From: a phage
DNA length: 64,000 nucleotides
Assembly: GCA_032430995.1 (NCBI GenBank)
Contig: GCA_032430995.1_3952.1
Strand: one strand, 5' to 3'
Positions 216 to 7,003 of the stretch are shown one piece after another (the stretch's first letter is position 1; the number at the start of each line of letters is the position of its first letter). The position numbers were made by a program, and so were the translations under genes. The notes beneath the pieces were generated by a model. The model did no database searches. It was not told the origin of the DNA and saw only the letters and a list, made by a program, of their open reading frames with translations.

Positions 216-1631
216 ATGAGCGAATTATTTAAACATGCGCACCTTCATGCAGGTCGAACTGAAAATGGTGCTGTAAACCATACTTCATCAATGTCTGCTC
301 TTGTAGACTTTTACAAAGCTGCTGGTTCAAGCCGTAGCAACGTAGAAATCTTACCAGACCTGTTCTACAAAGCTTTGCGTGAGGATGTTGATGTTGCAGT
401 TCGTATTTTGCTTCATATGCGAGATGTACGAGAAGGTATGGGTGAGCGTAAAGCCTTCAGAACTGTTTTGCTTCAAGCAATTGAAGATAAAGTTTTAGAG
501 CCTACACAGGTTCTTCGCATTATGGATAAGATTGCAGAACTTGGTCGTTTTGATGACTTCAAAATCTTCGTGGGTACTTGTTTCGAGACAGATGCCTTCA
601 AACATTTAGAAGCAGCATTACTAGACCCTGCAACAGCAGGTTTGGCGGCTAAGTGGTTACCACGAGTCAAACCACGTCATAAGCAGTTTGTAAAACGTTT
701 CTGCAAGTTTGCCAACTTGAGTGAGAAAGAGTACCGCACACTGTTGTCTGCACTATCTGATACAGTTGAGCAAAAAATCTCTGCTAATGAGTTTGGTAAG
801 ATTGACTACAGTAAGATTCCTTCACTTGCTGCTGCACGTTACCAAAAACTGTTTAACCGTAAAGATGGAGAGCGTTACAAAGCTTACATCGAGTCCTTAT
901 CAAAAGGTGAGACTAAGATTAGCGCTGGTGCTGTTTACCCATACGATGTGATTAAATCTGTCAAGCATGGTAATGCAGATGTTGCTAATGAGCAGTGGAA
1001 AGCACTACCAAACTGGATGGCAGAAGGTGAAAACATCTTGTGTATGTCTGATGTATCAAGTTCAATGTCTTGGGTGAATTTTGGCTCCATTACTGCTCTG
1101 GATATTGGTGTATCACTTGCCTTGTATGTAGCAGAACGCAATACAGGTTGCTTTAAGAATGAGTTGATGGTTTATTCAACAAACCCTCACTTCATCGAAC
1201 TGAGTGGTGATTTACGAAACCGTCATCGTCAGGTGATGCGACACGTTGAATATGGCTCAACTAACTTACAAGCAGCTTTTGACCGCATTCTTGAGACAGG
1301 CAAAAGAAACAACTTGACTCAGAAAGATATGCCAAGTAAGCTTATCATCTTCTCCGATATGGAGTTTAATCAGGTTGATGGGGCTAACGGTCGTACAAAC
1401 TTTGAAGCAATTCAGAGTAAGTACAAAAAAGCTGGATATGAGATGCCACAACTGGTATTCTGGTACTTAGCAAACCGTAATGGTACTTGCGAAGTATCTG
1501 TTAAGGATAACGGTGTAGCAATGGTATCAGGGTTCTCTCCAGCCACTTTAAAAGCTCTGCTTGGTGGTGAGAAGTTTGACCCAATCAGTGTAATGCTCAA
1601 AGCAGTAATGATTGACCGTTATATCTGGTAA
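216..1631 (+). CDS. von Willebrand factor A (vWA) domain protein, DUF2828/TROVE-like
   Basis: 471 aa ORF with RBS; MIDAS-like DxSxS motif (DVSSSMS) and a second vWA-like block (LIIFSDMEF) in the C-terminal half; family name recalled from memory, not searched. Confidence 0.5.
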   Translation: MSELFKHAHLHAGRTENGAVNHTSSMSALVDFYKAAGSSRSNVEILPDLFYKALREDVDVAVRILLHMRDVREGMGERKAFRTVLLQAIEDKVLEPTQVLRIMDKIAELGRFDDFKIFVGTCFETDAFKHLEAALLDPATAGLAAKWLPRVKPRHKQFVKRFCKFANLSEKEYRTLLSALSDTVEQKISANEFGKIDYSKIPSLAAARYQKLFNRKDGERYKAYIESLSKGETKISAGAVYPYDVIKSVKHGNADVANEQWKALPNWMAEGENILCMSDVSSSMSWVNFGSITALDIGVSLALYVAERNTGCFKNELMVYSTNPHFIELSGDLRNRHRQVMRHVEYGSTNLQAAFDRILETGKRNNLTQKDMPSKLIIFSDMEFNQVDGANGRTNFEAIQSKYKKAGYEMPQLVFWYLANRNGTCEVSVKDNGVAMVSGFSPATLKALLGGEKFDPISVMLKAVMIDRYIW

Positions 1632-1649: not shown

Positions 1650-1678
1650 TTGACAATGTGTTTAATACCCTTTAATAT
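1650..1678 (+). promoter_or_regulatory. sigma70-like promoter (TTGACA-N17-TAATAT) at head of tRNA array
   Basis: consensus -35 and near-consensus -10 with 17 nt spacer; embedded in inverted repeat AAGGGTAT...ATACCCTT. Confidence 0.5.
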
Positions 1679-1739
1679 GTTCTACATAGAAACGAAATGA
1701 GAGCTTTTCTAAGATACTGAAAAATATTTTAAAAAGTTC

Positions 1740-1769
1740 TTGACAACCACTAAAAAATAATGTTAAAGT
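1740..1769 (+). promoter_or_regulatory. sigma70-like promoter (TTGACA-N18-TAAAGT)
   Basis: same architecture as the promoter at 147-176; immediately upstream of first tRNA. Confidence 0.45.
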
Positions 1770-1795: not shown

Positions 1796-1872
1796 CTCTG
1801 TTTAGCTCAGCTTGGTAGAGCGTTCCGTTTGGGGCGGTAAGGCCGGAGGTTCAAGTCCTCCAACAGAGACCA
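1796..1872 (+). tRNA. tRNA-Pro (anticodon UGG)
   Basis: hand-folded cloverleaf: 7 bp acceptor stem, GGTTCAAGTCC T-arm, anticodon loop TTTGGGG, encoded CCA. Confidence 0.65.
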
Positions 1873-1879
1873 AATTAAT

Positions 1880-1957
1880 GTTCCAGTGGACAAAATGGTA
1901 AAGTCACCACTCTTTCAAAGTGGATATTTGAGGGTTCAAATCCCTTCTGGAACGCCA
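1880..1957 (+). tRNA. tRNA-Glu (anticodon UUC)
   Basis: acceptor GTTCCAG/CTGGAAC, anticodon stem CCACT/AGTGG with loop CTTTCAA, T-arm GGGTTCAAATCCC, CCA. Confidence 0.6.
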
Positions 1958-2047
1958 GTTTTGACAGAAGACCAATTACAGCAAACTTAATCTACTCATC
2001 TGAAAGTTAATCGGACAAAGAAGATATTTGGTCTGGTCATTAAGAAT

Positions 2048-2124
2048 TGCGGGTATAGAGAAAGGGCGTCTCACATGTCTCATTAGCATGGTATCGGCAG
2101 GTTCGACTCCTGCACCCGCCTCCA
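2048..2124 (+). tRNA. tRNA-Met/fMet/Ile2 (anticodon CAU)
   Basis: T-arm GCAGG-TTCGACT-CCTGC, anticodon stem CATGT/GCATG loop CTCATTA, CCA; first acceptor pair mismatched. Confidence 0.5.
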
Positions 2125-2207
2125 AATTTACAGAAGACCGTTTACAGCAATATTTATTAAATTTTTAGCGGAAAAATTGAAAGATACGGTCTGGTAATAC
2201 TAAACAT

Positions 2208-2284
2208 GGTTAGGAAGCACATAAGGTATGTGCGGTCGCCTGTTAAGCGAATGGCACAGGGTTCGAATCCCTGACTAACCGCCA
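2208..2284 (+). tRNA. tRNA-Asn (anticodon GUU)
   Basis: anticodon loop CTGTTAA, T-arm CAGGG-TTCGAAT-CCCTG, CCA. Confidence 0.6.
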
Positions 2285-2353
2285 AATTTAGGAGAGAAGC
2301 GATTGCTCACCGATTTGTAAGGTGCAAGTCCTTAGCCTGAATAGAAATCAAAT

Positions 2354-2441
2354 GTGTCGTTATCCCGTAGATGGTAGCGGTGGGGACTGTAAATCCCTTG
2401 TCATTGAGACTCGGTAGGTTCGACTCCTACACGGCACACCA
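2354..2441 (+). tRNA. tRNA-Tyr (anticodon GUA), long variable arm
   Basis: 88 nt; acceptor GTGTCGT/ACGGCAC, anticodon loop CTGTAAA, long variable arm, T-arm GGTTCGACTCC, CCA. Confidence 0.65.
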
Positions 2442-2447
2442 AATAAA

Positions 2448-2525
2448 GGTTATGTAGTTTAATCTGGTTAAAATACTCCCCTGTCACGGGAGATGATGAG
2501 GGTTCAAATCCCTTCGTAACCGCCA
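2448..2525 (+). tRNA. tRNA-Asp (anticodon GUC)
   Basis: anticodon stem CTCCC/GGGAG loop CTGTCAC, T-arm GGGTTCAAATCCC, CCA. Confidence 0.65.
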
Positions 2526-2708
2526 ATTTTGAGAGGGCTATTTAGCCCCTCCCTTAAAGGGTTCTTACGAGTATTCTTTAAAGGAGCAGAAGACCAAATA
2601 CAGCAAGTTATTTAAAATTTCAAGCCAATTTAATTTTGAAAAATTTAAAACTTGGTCTGGCTCAACAAATTTACAGAAGACCGTTTACAGCAAAACTTAA
2701 ACAATCTA

Positions 2709-2782
2709 TTTCTCCGGTAAAGAAAAGGCGAAGGTTCGATTCCTTCACTCGGCAGATGTCGAGTTGGTGTAATGGTAGCACT
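2709..2782 (+). other. tRNA-like element with permuted half order (3' half upstream of 5' half); possible permuted or pseudo tRNA
   Basis: 2709-2754 folds as anticodon-arm-like hairpin (TTTCT-CCGGTAA-AGAAA), T-arm GAAGG-TTCGATT-CCTTC and 3' acceptor strand ACTCGGC; 3 nt later 2758-2781 gives matching 5' acceptor strand GTCGAGT plus a D-arm; no normal upstream 5' half found. Confidence 0.25.
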
Positions 2783-2807
2783 TAAGATGATAAACAACGG
2801 TCTGGTA

Positions 2808-2950
2808 ATTATCTTTGTAGATAAGTTATTAAGCTTACCTGTGAGTATGCGACCACAAAGGGTGAAAGGGTAAATTCTAGATTTAAACCCAAAAAGGCAC
2901 ATCGCTACAGACCTTAAGCAAGTCTGGGTAGCTTATCTACAAAGATAATT
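2808..2950. repeat. perfect 19 bp inverted repeat (AATTATCTTTGTAGATAAG / CTTATCTACAAAGATAATT) flanking a 105 bp spacer
   Basis: arms at 2808-2826 and 2932-2950 are exact reverse complements; lies between the tRNA-like element and tRNA-Lys. Confidence 0.7.
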
Positions 2951-2954
2951 TAAT

Positions 2955-3030
2955 GGAAGTGTAGCAGAATGGTGATGCGGCAGACTTTTAATCTGACAGG
3001 CGATGGGTTCGAATCCCTCCACTTCTACCA
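2955..3030 (+). tRNA. tRNA-Lys (anticodon UUU, tentative)
   Basis: acceptor GGAAGTG/CACTTCT, T-loop GGGTTCGAATCCC, anticodon loop CTTTTAA, CCA; anticodon and T stems imperfect. Confidence 0.5.
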
Positions 3031-3108
3031 AATTCACCCTTAACTGAGAAACACCTGCGCGGCTGGAAACACCCACTCAACAGTTTCTCTAACTAGGGTA
3101 CTTATTCT

Positions 3109-3185
3109 GGTTCAGTCGCAGATAAGGTAATGCAAGGGTCTCATAAGCCCTATGAATGTGGGTTCGATTCCCATCTGAACCTCCA
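3109..3185 (+). tRNA. tRNA-Met (anticodon CAU)
   Basis: anticodon stem AGGGT/GCCCT loop CTCATAA, T-arm GGGTTCGATTCCC, CCA. Confidence 0.65.
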
Positions 3186-3186
3186 A

Positions 3187-3262
3187 GCTGGTATAGTTAA
3201 GAAGGTTATAACACTCCCCTGATAAGGGAACATCGGTGGTTCGATTCCACCTACCAGTACCA
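3187..3262 (+). tRNA. tRNA-Ile (anticodon GAU)
   Basis: anticodon loop CTGATAA, T-arm GGTGG-TTCGATT-CCACC, CCA. Confidence 0.65.
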
Positions 3263-3277
3263 ATTTCAATAAAGTTG

Positions 3278-3306
3278 TTGACATTGAGATGTGACTACTT
3301 TATAGT
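3278..3306 (+). promoter_or_regulatory. sigma70-like promoter (TTGACA-N17-TATAGT) internal to tRNA array
   Basis: consensus -35, 17 nt spacer, TATAGT -10. Confidence 0.5.
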
Positions 3307-3508
3307 AACCTTAGTTTTCGTTGCGTAGCGTCTATTTTGCAAATTTAAAATAAATGCAAACGACAATGTTTTTCTGGCAGTAGCTTGATAGGCTAAACAC
3401 CAGTGAGGTCTTCCAATCCCTCATCAAAGAATTTGGCGTACTCGCCCACGGTATGATTAATAAGGTGGGCATCTTTAAGGGCTTTCTAAGAGAGTCTTTA
3501 AAGATAAT

Positions 3509-3585
3509 GCACCCTTAGTTCAATTGGATAGAGCAACGGTCTTCTAAATCGTTAGTTACAGGTTCGAATCCTGTAGGGTGTACCA
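3509..3585 (+). tRNA. tRNA-Arg (anticodon UCU)
   Basis: acceptor GCACCCT/AGGGTGT, anticodon stem ACGGT/ATCGT loop CTTCTAA, T-arm CAGG-TTCGAAT-CCTG, CCA. Confidence 0.65.
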
Positions 3586-3727
3586 AATAGTTAGCAGATT
3601 ACTTAGACGGCCTTAGCGGGTCTTCCTGTAGGGAGGTGGTCTGTATCTCATGTTTTCCAGAACATGTAAATAATCTGAGAAGGAGCTTGACAGTGTTGAG
3701 ATAACAGGGTAAGCTTCGAATTATAAT

Positions 3728-3810
3728 ATGGGACGATGTTAAGACTCTAAGGCATGAGCAACGGCCTCCAAAACCGTTTCAAAGGGGTTCAACTCCTCCG
3801 TCCCATGCCA
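3728..3810 (+). tRNA. tRNA, anticodon uncertain (possibly Trp CCA; enlarged anticodon loop)
   Basis: perfect acceptor ATGGGAC/GTCCCAT, T-loop TTCAACT, CCA; anticodon stem AACGG/CCGTT closes a 9 nt loop CCTCCAAAA. Confidence 0.4.
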
Positions 3811-3823
3811 AAGTCTTATTAGG

Positions 3824-3911
3824 GGTAGGTAGCGGCTAATGGTAGCCAAACTGTCTTGAAAACAGTTGCCACTGTAGAGATACGGTGAGGGTTCGACTCC
3901 TTTACTTACCG
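3824..3911 (+). tRNA. tRNA-Ser (anticodon UGA), long variable arm
   Basis: 88 nt; acceptor GGTAGGT/ACTTACC, anticodon stem ACTGT/ACAGT loop CTTGAAA, long variable arm, T-arm GAGGG-TTCGACT-CCTTT. Confidence 0.65.
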
Positions 3912-4061
3912 CCTAATAAGATTTACTCCGTCCATGCTTGTTCGCATTGTCGGTTTATCCCTCGTGTATTGTCGTACACTGTCAAAGCACCTAGTAGGTG
4001 TCACGGAGAAGAGATAATATCAAGCTCTCCAAAGGTTCTAGTCACCGGATTAAACAAGACT

Positions 4062-4086
4062 ATGCAAAGACCTATTTAGGTCTTTT
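4062..4086 (+). terminator. intrinsic-terminator-like hairpin inside tRNA array
   Basis: AAGACC-TATTTA-GGTCTT stem-loop followed by a T run. Confidence 0.4.
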
Positions 4087-4167
4087 TAGAGGGCTTCTAA
4101 GGTTATTAGTCGCTTGTTGTGGAACCTTGTTGCTTAGGTTCTTAGAAGTTCTCTAAAAAGATTTAAT

Positions 4168-4245
4168 GGGAGATTGACGGTAATTGGTAAACCTACCATC
4201 CTTAGAAGTTGGTGTTTGAGGGTTCGAATCCCTTGTCTCCTACCA
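4168..4245 (+). tRNA. tRNA, anticodon apparently UAG (Leu-type) but short variable arm
   Basis: acceptor GGGAGAT/GTCTCCT, T-arm GAGGG-TTCGAAT-CCCTT, CCA; anticodon loop CTTAGAA; class I length. Confidence 0.4.
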
Positions 4246-4252
4246 AATTAAT

Positions 4253-4328
4253 GCAGGTGTAGCAAAATGGTTATGCGGCTGACTCTTAATCAGTAAGACG
4301 ATGGGTTCAATTCCCTCCACCTGTACCA
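4253..4328 (+). tRNA. tRNA-Lys (anticodon CUU)
   Basis: anticodon stem GCTGA/TCAGT loop CTCTTAA, T-loop GGGTTCAATTCCC, CCA. Confidence 0.55.
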
Positions 4329-4334
4329 AACATT

Positions 4335-4410
4335 GGGGATGTAGTTTACATGGTTAAAACATAAGTTTTGCAAACTTAAGTACAGGGTTCAATTCCCTGC
4401 TTCTCCACCA
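4335..4410 (+). tRNA. tRNA-Ala (anticodon UGC)
   Basis: anticodon stem TAAGT/ACTTA loop TTTGCAA, T-arm CAGGG-TTCAATT-CCCTG, CCA. Confidence 0.6.
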
Positions 4411-4416
4411 ATTAGT

Positions 4417-4491
4417 GCATCCATAGTTTAAACGGGAAAATTACAGTCTTCCAAACTGAGGTTGAGGGTTCGATTCCCTCTGGATGCTCCA
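4417..4491 (+). tRNA. tRNA-Gly (anticodon UCC)
   Basis: acceptor GCATCCA/TGGATGC, anticodon loop CTTCCAA, T-arm GAGGG-TTCGATT-CCCTC, CCA. Confidence 0.6.
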
Positions 4492-4497
4492 AACAAT

Positions 4498-4574
4498 GCT
4501 GCTTTCGTATAATTGGCTATTACACATCCCTTGTAAGGATGGAAATGCAGGTTCGAGTCCTGTGAGCAGCACCA
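4498..4574 (+). tRNA. tRNA-Thr (anticodon UGU)
   Basis: anticodon stem CATCC/GGATG loop CTTGTAA, T-arm GCAGG-TTCGAGT-CCTGT, CCA. Confidence 0.65.
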
Positions 4575-4670
4575 ATTCAGAGGTCAAGTGAAAGACCGCT
4601 TTGAGTCAACTGAAGACCGTAACAAATACCACGGAGTTGAGTTAGCGGCACAACTTCAGACCTCTTTCAT

Positions 4671-4745
4671 ACTCGCTTAGTTTATATGGTAAAACATCAC
4701 CCTTACAAGATGAAGAAAAAGGTTCAAGTCCTTTAGTGAGTACCA
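4671..4745 (+). tRNA. tRNA-Val (anticodon UAC)
   Basis: acceptor ACTCGCT/AGTGAGT, D-stem GTTT/AAAC, anticodon loop CTTACAA, T-arm AAAGG-TTCAAGT-CCTTT, CCA. Confidence 0.6.
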
Positions 4746-4746
4746 T

Positions 4747-4824
4747 GTTCCAGTATCCCAATTGGCAGAGGATGCAAGCTCAAACCTTGTATTAGTGACG
4801 GTTCGAATCCGTCTTGGAACACCA
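4747..4824 (+). tRNA. tRNA with Leu-type anticodon CAA, class I length
   Basis: acceptor GTTCCAG/TTGGAAC, anticodon stem GCAAG/CTTGT loop CTCAAAC, T-arm GACGG-TTCGAAT-CCGTC, CCA; no long variable arm. Confidence 0.5.
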
Positions 4825-4829
4825 ATTTT

Positions 4830-4905
4830 GCAGGATTAGTTCAAATGGAAAGAGCAACAGTCTACGAAGCTGTTAATAGGGGTTCGAATCCCTTATCCTG
4901 CGCCA
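4830..4905 (+). tRNA. tRNA-Arg (anticodon ACG)
   Basis: perfect acceptor GCAGGAT/ATCCTGC, anticodon loop CTACGAA, T-arm GGGGTTCGAATCCC, CCA. Confidence 0.7.
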
Positions 4906-4922
4906 GATAAAAAGGTGATACT

Positions 4923-5165
4923 ATGCAAACATTAACAGTAGTTGAACATGAAAACTGTGAGAGTATTGAGTTTGTCAGGGTCATTGGTGTTGAACACCAC
5001 ATTTTCTTAAAAGTGGGATACTTATGCGACCCCGCTAGAGTAGAAAGATTTATACGTGATTGTTTTGGTGGTAGACATCTGAAGAGTGTTATTTTTGAGA
5101 CAGTTTTACCAGAAGGTTTAGAAACGAATAATAACATTTACCTCCTTACGAGGATTAGACAATGA
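4923..5165 (+). CDS. hypothetical small protein inside tRNA array
   Basis: 80 aa ORF with AAGGTGA RBS 6 nt upstream of ATG; sits in a tRNA-free gap. Confidence 0.4.
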   Translation: MQTLTVVEHENCESIEFVRVIGVEHHIFLKVGYLCDPARVERFIRDCFGGRHLKSVIFETVLPEGLETNNNIYLLTRIRQ

Positions 5166-5719
5166 GATACTTAAAGTATGCTTCATGGATTTTCTTAGCT
5201 TTGTTAGAGCCATTTGCAGCAATCTTAGCAGTTATCTTAGCACCTTTTGTAGTTCCATTCTACAGTGAGAAGAAAGGACACTTACCTTTCGGGTTCAGAT
5301 GGATGGAGACATATGACAACCCAATTGATGGTGATGAAGGTCACGTTAAAAGATGGGCTAATATTAGATGGGTTGGTAAACTAGGTGTCTACATGCAAAG
5401 AGTCGGATGGCTCTGGAGAAACAAAGCTTATAACTTCTCTTACCATGTATTAGGAAGAGATGTAAGAGATGTTACTAAGTGGAAAGGTAATATCAACGTA
5501 AGTTCTAACCCTGAAGATAATCAGACTGGTTATCTCCTAATGTGGAACAGTAATGCTTGGGGATTATTCGCTTTTATCCCATCAATTAAAGTCTTCGGTA
5601 AACAGTTTTACTGGAGAATTTATGTTGGATGGAAACTTAAAAGTGTTGTCCCAGAAGAAAGAGCATTCTCAAGGGAAAGAGTTATGTTGGCATTCTTTAT
5701 TCATCCACTGAGAAAGTAA
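5162..5719 (+). CDS. hypothetical membrane protein
   Basis: 185 aa ORF overlapping upstream stop (ATGA); hydrophobic N-terminal segment; Trp/Tyr-rich. Confidence 0.5.
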   Translation: MRYLKYASWIFLALLEPFAAILAVILAPFVVPFYSEKKGHLPFGFRWMETYDNPIDGDEGHVKRWANIRWVGKLGVYMQRVGWLWRNKAYNFSYHVLGRDVRDVTKWKGNINVSSNPEDNQTGYLLMWNSNAWGLFAFIPSIKVFGKQFYWRIYVGWKLKSVVPEERAFSRERVMLAFFIHPLRK

Positions 5720-5727
5720 AGATTTAA

Positions 5728-5803
5728 AGGGGATTAGTTTACAAGGTTAAAACCTCGGTCTTTGAAATCGAAGAAGTTGGTTCAATTCCAACATCCCCCG
5801 CCA
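5728..5803 (+). tRNA. tRNA-Gln (anticodon UUG)
   Basis: D-stem GTTT/AAAC, anticodon stem TCGGT/ATCGA loop CTTTGAA, T-arm GTTGG-TTCAATT-CCAAC, CCA. Confidence 0.6.
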
Positions 5804-5805
5804 AT

Positions 5806-5884
5806 GCTCCATTACTCCAATTGGCAGAGAGGCCAGACTTAAAATCTGTGTTATGTATCGGTTCGAATCCGATATGGAGTACCA
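5806..5884 (+). tRNA. tRNA with Leu-type anticodon UAA, class I length
   Basis: acceptor GCTCCAT/ATGGAGT, anticodon loop CTTAAAA, T-arm ATCGG-TTCGAAT-CCGAT, CCA. Confidence 0.5.
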
Positions 5885-5889
5885 AATTT

Positions 5890-5965
5890 AGCGGTATAGC
5901 ATAACTGGCAATGCAGCAGTCTCTGAAGCTGTCCTATTAAGGTTCAAATCCTTATGCCGCTGCCA
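5890..5965 (+). tRNA. tRNA-Gln (anticodon CUG)
   Basis: D-stem GCAT/ATGC, anticodon stem GCAGT/GCTGT loop CTCTGAA, T-arm TAAGG-TTCAAAT-CCTTA, CCA. Confidence 0.55.
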
Positions 5966-5996
5966 CTTCTAAGGATTCTTACGAGAGTCCTTAAAT

Positions 5997-6072
5997 GTGG
6001 CCTTATCATAAATGGTAATGACCCATGCTGTGAACATGGTCTATACGGGTTCAAATCCCGTAGGTCACCCCA
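5997..6072 (+). tRNA. tRNA-His (anticodon GUG)
   Basis: anticodon stem CCATG/CATGG loop CTGTGAA, T-arm CGGG-TTCAAAT-CCCG, CCA. Confidence 0.65.
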
Positions 6073-6077
6073 ATTTA

Positions 6078-6154
6078 TAGTCCAAGTAGCTTATATGGTT
6101 AAAGCGCGTGTCTGAAAAACATGAGAAGAGGGTTCAAATCCCACTGGACTACCA
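6078..6154 (+). tRNA. tRNA-Phe (anticodon GAA)
   Basis: acceptor TAGTCCA/TGGACTA, anticodon stem CGTGT/ACATG loop CTGAAAA, T-loop GGGTTCAAATCCC. Confidence 0.6.
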
Positions 6155-6170
6155 ATTTCAAAGGTGCTTA

Positions 6171-6905
6171 ATGAAAGAGATGACAGAACAAGGTAAGGAG
6201 ATTTTCAATCTCTTAAAAACCGGTAAAGGGTTTTCTAACCCCCTTATTACTGGTGCAGCAGTTCTCGGTGGAACCGTAGCTGCCTCTACATCACTTGTAA
6301 GCTCTATTAGCTCTGTATCAGACCCTACAGTAAAGGATAAGCTTGTTGCTGCTGGACTTACAACAGTTCTGCTTAACAGCTTTACCACGAGTCTGACAAG
6401 CACTACATCAACCACCAAAACACTAACAGATTACGGTCAAAAGTCCATTGATGAGTTTTCATCACGTATGCAGGTAGCAAAAGGTTACTCTAATGTTATG
6501 GGTGCAGCAGGTGAACAAGTTGGCTGTACACCATTTAGTGGTATTATGGGTGTTGCTACAGAGTATGGTCAAAAAGCTATTGATACGATTAACAGTGCAC
6601 TAGACGGTGTTAATGGTGTGTTAAGTGACTTACAAGACGCTATTGACAAAGGTCTTGATACTATTTCTGATTTAGCTAACCAAGCTGTTAGTAAGATTAA
6701 TGAAGGTATCTCAAAGATTACAGCTTATGCAGATGAAGTTGTGCAGATGATTGAAGAAGAAGCTGCTCTTATTGCAGAGTACCTTAAAACGAATATCAAT
6801 GGGTTCTTAGCAGGTATCTTACCAGACTGGTTTGATGATGCTTGTAAAACTGGTGTAATTGACACTATTGCAACACCAGAAATGAAGAGCGCATTACAGA
6901 AATAA
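6171..6905 (+). CDS. hypothetical protein (Ser/Thr-rich N-terminal half, predicted helical C-terminal half)
   Basis: ORF track frame 6108-6905 trimmed to ATG 6171 because 6078-6154 is tRNA-Phe; RBS AAAGG upstream. Confidence 0.5.
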   Translation: MKEMTEQGKEIFNLLKTGKGFSNPLITGAAVLGGTVAASTSLVSSISSVSDPTVKDKLVAAGLTTVLLNSFTTSLTSTTSTTKTLTDYGQKSIDEFSSRMQVAKGYSNVMGAAGEQVGCTPFSGIMGVATEYGQKAIDTINSALDGVNGVLSDLQDAIDKGLDTISDLANQAVSKINEGISKITAYADEVVQMIEEEAALIAEYLKTNINGFLAGILPDWFDDACKTGVIDTIATPEMKSALQK

Positions 6906-6906
6906 T

Positions 6907-6999
6907 GGAAGATTAACCCTAAAAGGTAAGGGAGCAGTTTGCTAAACTGCCAGTAGCTGAGAAATCGGTGTACCAGTTCAAGTCTGGTATCTTCCTCCA
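6907..6999 (+). tRNA. tRNA-Ser (anticodon GCU), long variable arm
   Basis: 93 nt; perfect acceptor GGAAGAT/ATCTTCC, anticodon stem GCAGT/ACTGC loop TTGCTAA, long variable arm, T-arm ACCAG-TTCAAGT-CTGGT, CCA. Confidence 0.7.
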
Positions 7000-7003
7000 A
7001 TTT

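What the first reader, a model, noticed from the sequence alone, without database searches (positions are those of the whole stretch)
2808..2950. Perfect 19 bp inverted repeat enclosing 105 bp next to the tRNA-like element
AATTATCTTTGTAGATAAG (2808-2826) and its exact reverse complement (2932-2950) flank a 105 bp AT-rich segment, ending 4 bp before tRNA-Lys. A perfect IR of this length is unlikely by chance in a 64 kb window. It could form a long hairpin RNA, be a miniature inverted-repeat insertion, or be a protein binding site.
Basis: seen in the sequence. Interest (0 to 1): 0.45.

Follow-up and report, generated by a model that had tools for sequence, protein, structure and literature searches.

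The report
Closing stem of phage noncoding RNA
The perfect inverted repeat is the long closing helix of a conserved ~144-nt structured noncoding RNA in the tRNA operon of a Felix O1-like phage. It lies beside a tRNA-mimicking Y-RNA-like element and 1.2 kb downstream of a previously unrecognised Ro60-like protein gene.

Summary
The repeat is real. It is the longest perfect inverted repeat in the window; 100 shuffles gave at most 15.

It is an RNA helix on the + strand. Across 22 distinct relatives, 98% of cells pair, 9 pairs carry compensatory changes, and 35 wobble cells fit the + strand against 2 for the - strand. More distant relatives keep a ~20-25 bp stem with an unrelated sequence.

The stem closes a ~144-nt RNA ("M5") with three inner hairpins. 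M5 always sits directly 5' of tRNA-Lys(UUU).

The context is the main result:
- ORF 216-1631 (DUF2828/DUF7788) folds as a Ro60/TROVE ring plus vWA domain.
- Four repeated RNA modules lie between that ORF and M5.
- The module abutting M5 (2671-2808) is a circularly permuted tRNA mimic of YrlA type.

Best reading: M5 is a stable RNA cut out of the tRNA precursor. RNase P would make its 3' end, and the stem would protect it or serve as an RNase III site. It probably belongs to the phage's Ro60-like/Y-RNA-like system; that link is inferred, not shown.

The MITE and DNA-binding-site readings are rejected.

The parts
2807..2828 (+). 5' strand of the closing helix of ncRNA 'M5' (perfect 19-mer at 2807-2825)
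   Evidence: locate the arm; the 22 pairs are 97.9% paired across 22 distinct homologues, and 7 pairs carry double-sided changes.
2929..2950 (+). 3' strand of the closing helix (perfect 19-mer at 2932-2950). It ends 4 nt before tRNA-Lys.
   Evidence: A G.U pair at 2826/2931 is kept in 21 of 22 sequences, which marks + strand RNA.
2835..2865 (+). Inner hairpin H1, with loop (G)AGUAUGCG
   Evidence: MFE fold. The loop motif is shared with L062 on a different stem (GGGG/CCCC versus CCUGUG/CACAAAGG). This is the least certain of the three inner hairpins.
2868..2890 (+). Inner hairpin H2 (GGGU...ACCC) with apex AUUCUAGAUU. The palindrome UCUAGA is at 2876-2881.
   Evidence: The apex is conserved in both interior types A and B. 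L062 has ACUAGU instead, which is again a palindrome.
2908..2926 (+). Inner hairpin H3: CAGAC / GUCUG stem with loop CUUAAGCAA, stacked directly on the 3' strand of the closing helix
   Evidence: 5 pairs are 100% paired and 2 pairs carry double-sided changes (G-C to A-U, A-U to U-A); this hairpin type occurs exactly once in each of 10 Ounavirinae-like loci, always in M5, and never on the - strand.
2951..3030 (+). 4-nt linker TAAT followed by tRNA-Lys(UUU) at 2955-3030. RNase P cleavage at 2954/2955 would create the 3' end of M5.
   Evidence: tRNA, 54.4 bits. The cleavage itself is inferred from established RNase P biology.
2671..2808 (+). Module M4, a YrlA-like circularly permuted tRNA mimic.
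- h2: UUAC 2671-2674
- internal loop, 5' side: AGAA 2675-2678
- h1: GACCGU 2679-2684
- single-stranded UUACAGCAA 2685-2693
- V hairpin 2709-2725
- T arm 2730-2746
- acceptor-like stem-loop 2747-2764 (7 bp, loop AGAU)
- UG 2765-2766
- D arm 2767-2781
- h1' ACGGUC 2797-2802
- internal loop, 3' side: UG 2803-2804
- h2' GUAA 2805-2808
   Evidence: (the acceptor-like stem covaries: ACUCGGC/GUCGAGU versus ACCCUUC/GAAGGGU). The architecture matches that described in PMC4201824 and 10.1101/312249.
2584..2663 (+). Module M3 (GAGC[AGAA]GACCAA...UUGGUC[UG]GCUC) with a simple hairpin payload
   Evidence: Helix h2 covaries between copies.
2128..2197 (+). Module M2 (UUAC[AGAA]GACCGU...ACGGUC[UG]GUAA)
   Evidence: (families D4, D14, I2)
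1962..2039 (+). Module M1 (UGAC[AGAA]GACCAA...UUGGUC[UG]GUCA)
216..1631 (+). Ro60-like protein gene (471 aa; Pfam DUF2828 + DUF7788; PHROG 850 'RNA-binding protein')
   Evidence: AlphaFold2 model with pLDDT 86.6 and pTM 0.87. The 13 best Foldseek PDB hits are all Ro60/TROVE proteins (E 3e-8 to 1e-5, TM 0.43-0.62, full length). 8 of 34 homologues hit Pfam vWA_Ro60. A DxSxS MIDAS motif is invariant at D279/S281/S283.
1650..1769 (+). Two sigma-70-like promoters (1650-1678 and 1740-1769), upstream of the first tRNA at 1796. They are the likely start of the transcript that carries M1-M5.
   Evidence: These are consensus matches only.

Best explanation
The inverted repeat is the terminal (closing) helix of a conserved, structured noncoding RNA of about 144 nt. 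I call it M5 (window 2807-2950, + strand).

Transcription and processing (inferred):
- M5 is transcribed as part of the phage's polycistronic tRNA operon.
- RNase P cleavage at the 5' end of tRNA-Lys(UUU), 4 nt past the helix, would give M5 a 3' end that is almost flush with the stem.
- The 22-24 bp A/U-rich duplex would then hold the two ends together and protect the RNA from 3' exonucleases.
- At about two helical turns, the duplex is also a plausible RNase III site that frees M5 from the upstream RNA.

Anatomy (shown by folding and covariation): inside the stem are three hairpins. The one stacked on the stem (H3) has a loop, C(C)UUAAGCAA, that resembles the conserved YUNCAGCAA segment of four repeated RNA modules immediately upstream.

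Link to Ro60 (inferred):
- Those modules, one of which is a YrlA-type tRNA mimic abutting M5, are the likely RNA partners of the Ro60-like protein encoded 1.2 kb upstream on the same strand.
- M5 is most likely a further member of this Ro60-like/Y-RNA-like set. This parallels known Ro60 loci, where a tRNA-like Y RNA and a second long-hairpin Y RNA are made from one precursor.

Status of each step:
- Shown: the helix, its RNA-level conservation, the strand, the conserved position, and the Ro60-like fold of the neighbouring protein.
- Inferred: the processing enzymes, the stability of the RNA, and any binding to the Ro60-like protein.
For: Helix and strand:
- 27 pairs are 98.3% paired in 22 distinct sequences. 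Nine pairs carry double-sided changes. Controls with slid partners give 29-44% pairing and 0-1 such pairs.
- G.U cells favour the + strand 35 to 2.
- The covariance model scores 162 bits on the + strand and 61 bits on the - strand.

Structure kept while sequence changes:
- L062, L063, L064 and L065 have Ro-like proteins only 53-63% identical to the window's. All fold into 140-162-nt elements closed by stems of about 20-25 bp with unrelated sequences.
- All of them lie directly 5' of tRNA-Lys(UUU).

Interior is constrained:
- H3 covaries.
- The type B inner helix has 3 covarying pairs.
- The loop motifs (AGUAUGCG, CUAG, YUNNGCAA) persist.
- Indels of 1-2 nt in close relatives rule out coding constraint.

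Operon context:
- 26 + strand tRNAs, promoters at 1650 and 1740, and no terminator at M5.
- Other long stems end 1-3 nt before tRNA-Leu and tRNA-Arg.

Ro60 context:
- ORF 216-1631 folds as Ro60.
- M4 has the YrlA order V-T-AS-D with a closed acceptor-like stem.
- The same module grammar, enclosing T-AS-D, recurs next to DUF2828 genes in distant phages. It is always on the gene strand: 59 orphan T arms against 0 on the other strand, and 17 loci against 1 for the strict pattern.
- Published Ro60 loci carry one tRNA-like Y RNA plus one long-hairpin Y RNA, processed from a single precursor (PMC4201824).
Against: - No expression, end-mapping or binding data exist; no paper was found in the held library.
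- M5 itself lacks the module's conserved A-N-A-A / U-G internal loop. It also lacks the published GNCGAAN0-1G Ro-binding motif. Only L063's version has a module-like closing stem.
- M5 is confined to the Ounavirinae-like clade, whereas the YrlA-like RNAs follow DUF2828 genes much more widely. M5 may therefore serve something other than the Ro-like protein.
- No Rfam family matches M5.
- The natural isolate FG1m lacks M4 and M5, so M5 is dispensable for growth in the laboratory.
Confidence: 0.6

Rival explanations
1. M5 is only a processing spacer. The long duplex would be an RNase III stalk, like those flanking 16S and 23S rRNA, whose sole job is to separate tRNA-Lys from the upstream RNAs. 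The excised interior would be degraded and have no function of its own.
For: - The stem is about two helical turns long and A/U-rich.
- Similar long stems end 1-3 nt before tRNA-Leu (4076-4166) and tRNA-Arg (3471-3505), with related 3' arm ends ..AAAGAU(n)AAU.
- L062 has a hairpin with the same CUUUGUAGAU core 5' of tRNA-Leu.
- FG1m is viable without M5.
Against: - The interior is not free to drift. H3 and its loop are conserved in every Ounavirinae-like locus.
- The H2 apex and the H1 loop motifs persist across diverged lineages.
- Inner helices covary.
- A pure spacer would need only the stem.
Confidence: 0.22
2. The element is a miniature inverted-repeat mobile element, or the remnant of a mobile insertion, sitting in the tRNA array.
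For: - It has terminal inverted repeats of 19-22 bp around a short segment.
- The interior occurs in two very different versions (types A and B) between conserved arms.
- The array contains homing-endonuclease genes in relatives.
Against: - It is single-copy in the window.
- It is absent from E. coli genomes.
- In IMG/VR it is found only at this locus of Ounavirinae.
- No target-site duplication is visible.
- The arms evolve by compensatory and G.U changes rather than staying identical as transposase sites would.
- The position 5' of tRNA-Lys is kept in distant relatives that have different arms.
Confidence: 0.02
3. The repeat is a DNA-level palindrome: a binding site for a dimeric protein, or a cruciform used in replication, packaging or recombination.
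For: The inverted repeat is perfect and significant.
Against: - The half-sites are 106 bp apart.
- 35 cells are G.U pairs on the + strand, which would be A.C mismatches in a cruciform's other arm or on the - strand.
- Distant relatives keep the pairing but not the sequence. That is the opposite of what a protein recognition site would show.
Confidence: 0.03
4. The element is a transcription terminator or attenuator, or a cis-regulatory leader that controls expression of tRNA-Lys.
For: It is a strong hairpin directly upstream of a gene.
Against: - The stem is A/U-rich and is followed by UAAU, not a U-run.
- The terminator scan finds nothing here.
- tRNAs in such arrays are matured from read-through precursors.
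- No Rfam cis-regulatory family matches.
Confidence: 0.03

Closest known systems
Bacterial and phage Y RNAs bound by Ro60/Rsr: YrlA (tRNA-like) and YrlB/Yrn2 (long hairpin). Examples are S. Typhimurium, M. smegmatis, D. radiodurans and mycobacteriophages (PMC4201824; 10.1101/312249).
   Same: - The RNAs are encoded within 4 kb of a Ro60-fold gene, on the same strand.
- There are several RNAs per locus, one of them a permuted tRNA mimic (here M4).
- Another RNA has a long stem formed by pairing of its 5' and 3' ends (here M5).
- The RNAs are made from one precursor.
- Some acceptor-like stems are 7 bp long and carry an encoded NCCA, as in the RNase P-cleaved M. smegmatis YrlA.
   Different: - The protein is DUF2828/DUF7788, not an annotated TROVE protein. 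It shows no sequence-level hit to any solved Ro60.
- The conserved RNA motif is h2-[ANAA]-h1-YUNCAGCAA ... h1'-[UG]-h2', not GNCGAAN0-1G.
- The RNAs are interleaved with genuine tRNA genes.
- M5 has a three-hairpin interior rather than a small pyrimidine-rich loop, and it lacks the module motif in its stem.
- No Rfam Y-RNA family matches.
Thermus phage phiLo phiRo60 with Yrl1 and Yrl2 (PMC12135203; PDB 9KOP, 9L5Y)
   Same: It is a phage-encoded Ro60-fold protein with two adjacent Y-RNA-like genes. It is the top structural match to the window's ORF.
   Different: - Sequence identity is only 15-16%.
- The phiLo RNAs lie upstream of the gene, have a CGAA motif, and are not in a tRNA array.
- Binding and PNPase recruitment were shown experimentally there. 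Nothing has been shown here.
RNase III processing stalks: rRNA operon stems and T7 early-mRNA sites (established knowledge)
   Same: In both, a long-range duplex of about two helical turns encloses an RNA that is excised from a polycistronic precursor.
   Different: Cleavage is untested here. The stem is only 4 nt from an RNase P site, which could make the 3' end without RNase III.
Phage T4 stable RNAs 'species 1 and 2' (rnaC, rnaD), encoded within the T4 tRNA cluster
   Same: They are small stable RNAs of unknown function, co-transcribed and co-processed with phage tRNAs.
   Different: No sequence or structural comparison was made here. T4 is not known to encode a Ro60-like protein.
Miniature inverted-repeat transposable elements (MITEs)
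   Same: Both have short terminal inverted repeats flanking about 100 bp.
   Different: M5 is single-copy, has no target duplication, has arms that covary as RNA, and keeps a fixed syntenic position.

Membership tests
Y RNA (Ro60-associated ncRNA), tested for M5 | Encoded near (within 4 kb of) a Ro60 orthologue and on the same strand | tested here: met
   M5 starts 1,176 nt after the stop codon of ORF 216-1631, on the same strand. The ORF has a Ro60 fold. The orthology is structural only.
Y RNA (Ro60-associated ncRNA), tested for M5 | [quoted passage not shown] | tested here: met
   The closing helix is 22-24 bp, covaries, and is conserved in length across the clade. The RNA ends themselves have not been mapped.
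Y RNA (Ro60-associated ncRNA), tested for M5 | A Ro60-binding motif in the stem: GNCGAAN0-1G in bacteria, GGUCCGA bulged helix in metazoa | tested here: not met
   The M5 stem has no such motif and no A-N-A-A/U-G internal loop. Only the H3 loop resembles the module's YUNCAGCAA segment.
Y RNA (Ro60-associated ncRNA), tested for M5 | Physically bound by the Ro60 protein | not testable with these tools
   This needs RIP/CLIP or EMSA.
YrlA (tRNA-like Y RNA), tested for the neighbouring module M4 | Domain order V, T arm, closed acceptor-like stem-loop, D arm, all enclosed by a 5'/3' stem, with T-loop UUCRA and D-loop GG | tested here: met
   V 2709-2725; T 2730-2746 (loop UUCGAUU); AS 2747-2764; D 2767-2781 (loop with GG); enclosing stem 2679-2684 / 2797-2802. 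AS and h2 covary.
YrlA (tRNA-like Y RNA), tested for the neighbouring module M4 | Match to a curated covariance model, or presence of the GNCGAAN0-1G motif | tested here: not met
   No Rfam hit other than a weak partial tRNA match (22 bits) at E up to 10. The motif here is ACAGAAGAC, not GNCGAAG.
Ro60 / TROVE protein, tested for ORF 216-1631 | HEAT-repeat ring plus a C-terminal vWA domain with a MIDAS motif | tested here: met
   The 13 best Foldseek hits are all Ro60, aligned over the full length. There are vWA_Ro60 Pfam hits in 8 of 34 homologues. DxSxS is invariant. There is no sequence-level PDB hit.
MITE / mobile inverted-repeat element | Multiple dispersed copies with target-site duplications | tested here: not met
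   One copy in the window, none in E. coli genomes, and only the syntenic locus in IMG/VR.
Intrinsic terminator | A G+C-rich hairpin followed by a U-run | tested here: not met
   The stem has 4 G-C pairs out of 22 and the tail is UAAU. The scan finds nothing at this site.
RNase III substrate | About 20 bp or more of near-perfect dsRNA, and cleavage by RNase III | tested here: inconclusive
   The length criterion is met in all homologues. Cleavage cannot be tested here.
tRNA / tmRNA, tested for M5 | Cloverleaf or tRNA-like domain recognised by ARAGORN or Rfam | tested here: not met
   Searches find nothing in 2807-2950.

The most novel reading that the evidence does not exclude
DUF2828/DUF7788 proteins would be a large, unrecognised branch of Ro60 that is widespread in phages and has its own family of Y RNAs.
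- The RNA signature is h2-[ANAA]-h1-YUNCAGCAA ... h1'-[UG]-h2'.
- Many of these RNAs are permuted tRNA mimics, and they are embedded in phage tRNA operons.
- M5 would be a clade-specific additional RNA subunit or adaptor of this particle.
- The particle could be used to police or reshape tRNA and RNA processing, or host RNA decay (for example through PNPase), during infection.
- This would also be a living example of the proposed origin of YrlA from dimeric tRNA transcripts.
Probability: 0.3. Interest if true: 0.75.

Novelty: new variant of a known kind. Interest (0 to 1): 0.6.

Why it matters
Felix O1 is a classic Salmonella typing and therapy phage, yet the 430-bp 'intergenic' stretch between its tRNA-Asp and tRNA-Lys genes is unannotated or carries spurious ORFs.

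This work shows that the stretch encodes conserved structured RNAs next to a Ro60-fold protein. If the link holds:
- It gives a genetically tractable E. coli/Salmonella system for asking what phage Ro60 particles do.
- It supports the idea that tRNA-like Y RNAs arose inside tRNA operons.

For annotation, it removes false ORFs such as Felix O1 ORF94.

Tried and rejected
- **Rfam**: no family matches M5 or the modules. The only hits were a weak partial tRNA match over M4's V and T region and a 16.6-bit Dictyostelium Class I RNA match over M3. The latter shares UACAGCAA and is probably chance.
- **tmRNA or tag-peptide idea.** Type B contains AUGAGUGCCGAUGAAUUUCCUUAG. I rejected a coding reading because substitutions there follow base-pairing, not codons, and because ARAGORN and Rfam find no tmRNA.
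- **Hammerhead-like core** (CGAUGA...GAAA in type B): rejected because GAAA is not conserved in Mooglevirus sequences.
- **Small ORFs** (33 aa on the + strand at 2772-2873; 85 aa on the - strand at 2645-2902, equivalent to Felix O1 ORF94): rejected because of 1-2-nt indels among close relatives and the replacement of the interior between types A and B.
- **IMG/VR pattern search for M5 interiors with other arms**: the 23 new loci were all chance hits in coding DNA.
- **Covariance model R1 on 58 loci**: it recovers only the window, L062 and, weakly, L063. L064 and L065 were found only by synteny and folding.
- **Generic structural scan for modules without the CAGCA motif**: not specific, with 19 hits against about 8 in shuffles.
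- **Sequence searches of the ORF against the PDB**: nothing. Only the fold comparison revealed Ro60.
- **Literature**: nothing on DUF2828 as Ro60, on Felixounavirus Y RNAs, or on Felix O1 transcriptomes. Two Wolin-lab reviews were not held.

Full report
**Where the window comes from.** The window is a Felix O1-like phage (Felixounavirus, Ounavirinae). The 2500-3100 stretch is 99.8% identical to E. coli O157 typing phage 15 and matches 282 phage records. ARAGORN finds 26 tRNA genes at 1796-7079, all on the + strand. The finding lies between tRNA-Asp (2448-2525) and tRNA-Lys(UUU) (2955-3030).

**Checking the observation.**
Its exact reverse complement is at 2932-2950.
- The pairing extends to 22 nt, and to 24 bp with G.U pairs.
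- The enclosed segment is 106 nt with 41.5% G+C, against 39.4% for the window, so it is not AT-rich.
- It is the longest perfect inverted repeat (gap of 200 nt or less) in the window. The longest in 100 shuffles was 10-15 nt.
- The 19-mer has no other copy, even with 3 mismatches.
- 121 public records carry the region at 99% identity or more, so it is not a sequencing error.

**It is an RNA helix on the + strand.** I collected 22 distinct versions from GenBank phages and IMG/VR contigs and aligned them (A3).
- For the 22-bp closing helix plus a 5-bp inner hairpin, 98.3% of cells form standard pairs.
- Nine pairs show changes on both sides, for example U-A to C-G at 2818/2939 and G-C to C-G at 2825/2932.
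- None of 500 column shuffles reaches these values. Sliding the 3' partners by 1-3 columns gives 29-44% pairing and 0-1 compensatory pairs.
- Single-sided changes are overwhelmingly G.U on the + strand: 35 cells, against 2 A.C cells that would be G.U on the - strand.
- A covariance model scores the + strand at 162 bits and the - strand at 61 bits.
- The fold of 2800-2955 is -48.3 kcal/mol, with a z-score of -4.97.

**Conservation of shape without sequence.** Contigs whose Ro-like protein is only 53-63% identical to the window's (L062-L065, including Yersinia phage P778) have, directly 5' of their tRNA-Lys(UUU), elements of 140-162 nt. These are closed by stems of about 20-25 bp with quite different sequences. 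Examples are AUUAUUCUUGUAAGUAAGCUGU / ACAGCUUACCUACAAGAAUAAU in L062 and UUCUAUUUAAUGGGUG... / ...CACGCCUUAAAUAGAA in L065.

**Interior of the element.** Just inside the 3' strand of the stem, every homologue has a 5-6-bp hairpin (H3) with loop C(C)UUAAGCAA, CCUUAGCAA or CCUAUGCAA.
- This hairpin type occurs exactly once in each of 10 Ounavirinae-like loci, and never on the opposite strand.
- Within Felixounavirus the interior comes in two versions. Type A is in the window and Felix O1. Type B is in bumzen, DR094, Mooglevirus and Suspvirus.
- Both types share the H2 apex AUUCUAGAUU and H3.
- The type B inner helix has three covarying pairs.
- Indels of 1-2 nt in close relatives exclude a coding reading.

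I call this RNA M5.

**Surroundings: repeated modules.** The 430 nt between tRNA-Asp and tRNA-Lys are strongly conserved and consist of consecutive RNA modules. Four copies share one grammar:

5'-h2(4 nt)-[A N A A]-h1(5-7 nt)-YUNCAGCAA-payload-h1'-[U G]-h2'-3'

- The copies are M1 1962-2039, M2 2128-2197, M3 2584-2663 and M4 2671-2808.
- h1 and h2 covary between copies and between phages. Examples for h2 are UGAC/GUCA, UUAC/GUAA, GAGC/GCUC, UUGC/GCAA and GAAC/GUUC.
- All Ounavirinae-like loci carry 3-5 such modules, only on the gene strand.

**M4 is a tRNA mimic.** The payload of M4, which abuts M5 and overlaps its first two bases, is a circularly permuted tRNA mimic. In order it has:
- a variable-arm-like hairpin;
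- a canonical T arm (GAAGG-UUCGAUU-CCUUC);
- a 7-bp acceptor-like stem closed by a tetraloop;
- the dinucleotide UG;
- a D arm with GG.

The acceptor-like stem covaries (ACUCGGC/GUCGAGU in the window, ACCCUUC/GAAGGGU in Mooglevirus). In Mooglevirus, L063, L095 and L117 it is followed by an encoded NCCA. This is the architecture published for YrlA, the tRNA-like Y RNA bound by bacterial Ro60 (PMC4201824; 10.1101/312249).

**The protein upstream.** ORF 216-1631 (471 aa, + strand) sits just upstream of the array.
- It matches only Pfam DUF2828 + DUF7788 and PHROG 850 'RNA-binding protein'.
- It has no sequence-level hit in the PDB.
- An AlphaFold2 model built from 34 homologues has pLDDT 86.6 and pTM 0.87.
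- Its 13 best Foldseek matches in the PDB are all Ro60/TROVE proteins aligned over the full length: Thermus phage phiLo, Xenopus, human and Deinococcus Rsr (E 3e-8 to 1e-5, TM 0.43-0.62). Below these come isolated vWA domains.
- Eight of 34 homologues also hit Pfam vWA_Ro60.
- A DxSxS MIDAS motif is invariant.

**The pairing of protein and RNA is general.** I examined 75 distant DUF2828 loci from IMG/VR with 38-47% protein identity.
- 27 have tRNA genes within 4 kb, all on the gene strand.
- Across all 84 loci, 'orphan' T-arm motifs outside called tRNAs number 59 on the gene strand and 0 on the other.
- Many of these orphans sit in T-AS-D units enclosed by the same 5' AAAG-h1-UUUCAGCAA ... h1'-UGAUA 3' grammar (L073, L076, L082, L086, L092, L093, L095, L096, L099, L117).
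- A strict pattern finds 17 loci on the gene strand and 1 on the other.
- These RNAs meet the published positional criterion for Y RNAs: within 4 kb of the gene and on the same strand.
- None is recognised by Rfam.
- I found no paper that links DUF2828 or Felixounavirus to Ro60 or Y RNAs.

**How M5 most likely works.**

Shown:
- M5 is a + strand structured RNA with constrained stems and loops.
- It sits in a tRNA transcription unit. There are promoter-like sites at 1650 and 1740 and no terminator at M5.

Inferred:
- RNase P cleavage at 2954/2955 leaves M5 with a 4-nt 3' tail on a 22-24-bp duplex. That structure resists 3' exonucleases.
- The duplex, about two helical turns long and A/U-rich, is also a plausible RNase III site that would free the 5' side.
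- Two other long stems end 1-3 nt before tRNA-Leu (4076-4166, 26 bp) and tRNA-Arg (3471-3505, 16 bp). Their 3' ends are related..AAAGAU(n)AAU. Stem-before-tRNA is therefore a recurring design in this operon.
[quoted passage not shown] M5's H3 looks like an 'empty' module core (h1 + YUNNGCAA + h1').
- On these grounds I consider M5 most likely a further RNA of the Ro60-like system.

Caveats on the Ro link:
- M5's stem lacks the module's ANAA/UG loop.
- M5 is confined to the Ounavirinae-like clade.
- The natural isolate FG1m lacks M4 and M5.

My confidence is about 0.9 that the repeat is the closing helix of a functional structured RNA, and about 0.35-0.4 that this RNA works with the Ro60-like protein.

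**Rejected readings.**
- MITE: single copy, absent from 5,426 E. coli genomes, syntenic, and the arms covary.
- DNA protein-binding site or cruciform: the half-sites are 106 bp apart, there is a G.U strand bias, and sequence is not conserved among distant relatives.
- Terminator: the stem is A/U-rich with no U-run.
- Coding: indels rule it out.
- tmRNA or ribozyme: ARAGORN and Rfam find nothing, and the candidate motifs are not conserved.

**Verdict.** The real interest lies in the context: an unannotated Ro60-like/Y-RNA-like system woven into the tRNA operon of a model phage, with M5 as an uncharacterised conserved RNA next to the tRNA mimic.

Noticed in passing
window 216-1631 (+): A 471-aa DUF2828/DUF7788 protein, annotated as hypothetical in most records, has a full-length Ro60 (TROVE ring + vWA) fold.
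   Followed up: yes
window 1962-2039, 2128-2197, 2584-2663, 2671-2808 (+): Four copies of a covarying RNA module, h2-[AGAA]-h1-UACAGCAA-payload-h1'-[UG]-h2', are interleaved with tRNA genes. The fourth holds a YrlA-like permuted tRNA mimic. The same grammar occurs next to DUF2828 genes in distant phages.
   Followed up: yes
L002/L003 (Mooglevirus), L063 ~7021-7045, L095 ~6008-6030, L117 ~5580-5600: In some lineages the acceptor-like stem of the YrlA-like RNA is 7 bp long and is followed by an encoded NCCA (GCCA or ACCA) before the loop. These versions could be opened by RNase P into a two-piece, CCA-ended tRNA-like RNA, as reported for M. smegmatis YrlA. The window's version has a closed AGAU tetraloop instead.
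   Followed up: partly
window 4076-4166 and 3471-3505 (+); L062 7906-7993: There are further long hairpins (26-bp and 16-bp stems) ending 1-3 nt before tRNA-Leu(UAG) and tRNA-Arg(UCU). Their 3' arm ends resemble M5's (..AAAGAUnAAU). L062 has a 23-bp hairpin with the same CUUUGUAGAU core 5' of its tRNA-Leu.
   Followed up: partly
window ~3729-3810 (+); similar in L071 ~7990-8065: An unannotated tRNA-like sequence has a T arm, an acceptor-like stem and a ...CCAUGCCA tail, and what looks like an expanded anticodon loop (CCUCCAAAA). ARAGORN does not call it, and Rfam gives only a 23-bit tRNA-Sec-like hit.
   Followed up: no
window 3278-3306 and 3204-3508 (+): The strongest sigma-70-like promoter of the region (TTGACA-17-TATAGT) lies right after tRNA-Ile. 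It is followed by about 200 nt with sub-threshold Rfam hits to tmRNA and permuted tmRNA (29 and 16 bits). ARAGORN finds no tmRNA.
   Followed up: no
window 2592-2659 (+): Module M3 gives a weak (16.6 bits, E 2.3) match to Dictyostelium Class I RNA, which shares a short stem followed by CUUACAGCAA. This is probably chance, but the motif resemblance is curious.
   Followed up: no
L009 (ESCO50), L010 (FG1m): Natural Felixounavirus isolates carry deletions in the array whose ends lie at or near the repeated modules. FG1m lacks the stretch from tRNA-Asn to tRNA-Lys, including M4 and M5. ESCO50 lacks tRNA-Asp, M3 and most of M4, and has a truncated tRNA-Lys, but keeps M5. The repeats may drive recombination, and these RNAs are dispensable in the laboratory.
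   Followed up: partly
L071-L145 (75 distant DUF2828 loci): 27 of the 75 loci have tRNA genes within 4 kb of the Ro-like gene, every one on the same strand. This suggests a general functional or transcriptional coupling between this protein family and phage tRNA arrays.
   Followed up: partly
window 2645-2902 (-) and 2772-2873 (+): ORFs annotated in some records (for example Felix O1 ORF94 'unknown', and 'hypothetical protein' entries under the match) overlap M4 and M5. They are almost certainly spurious.
   Followed up: partly
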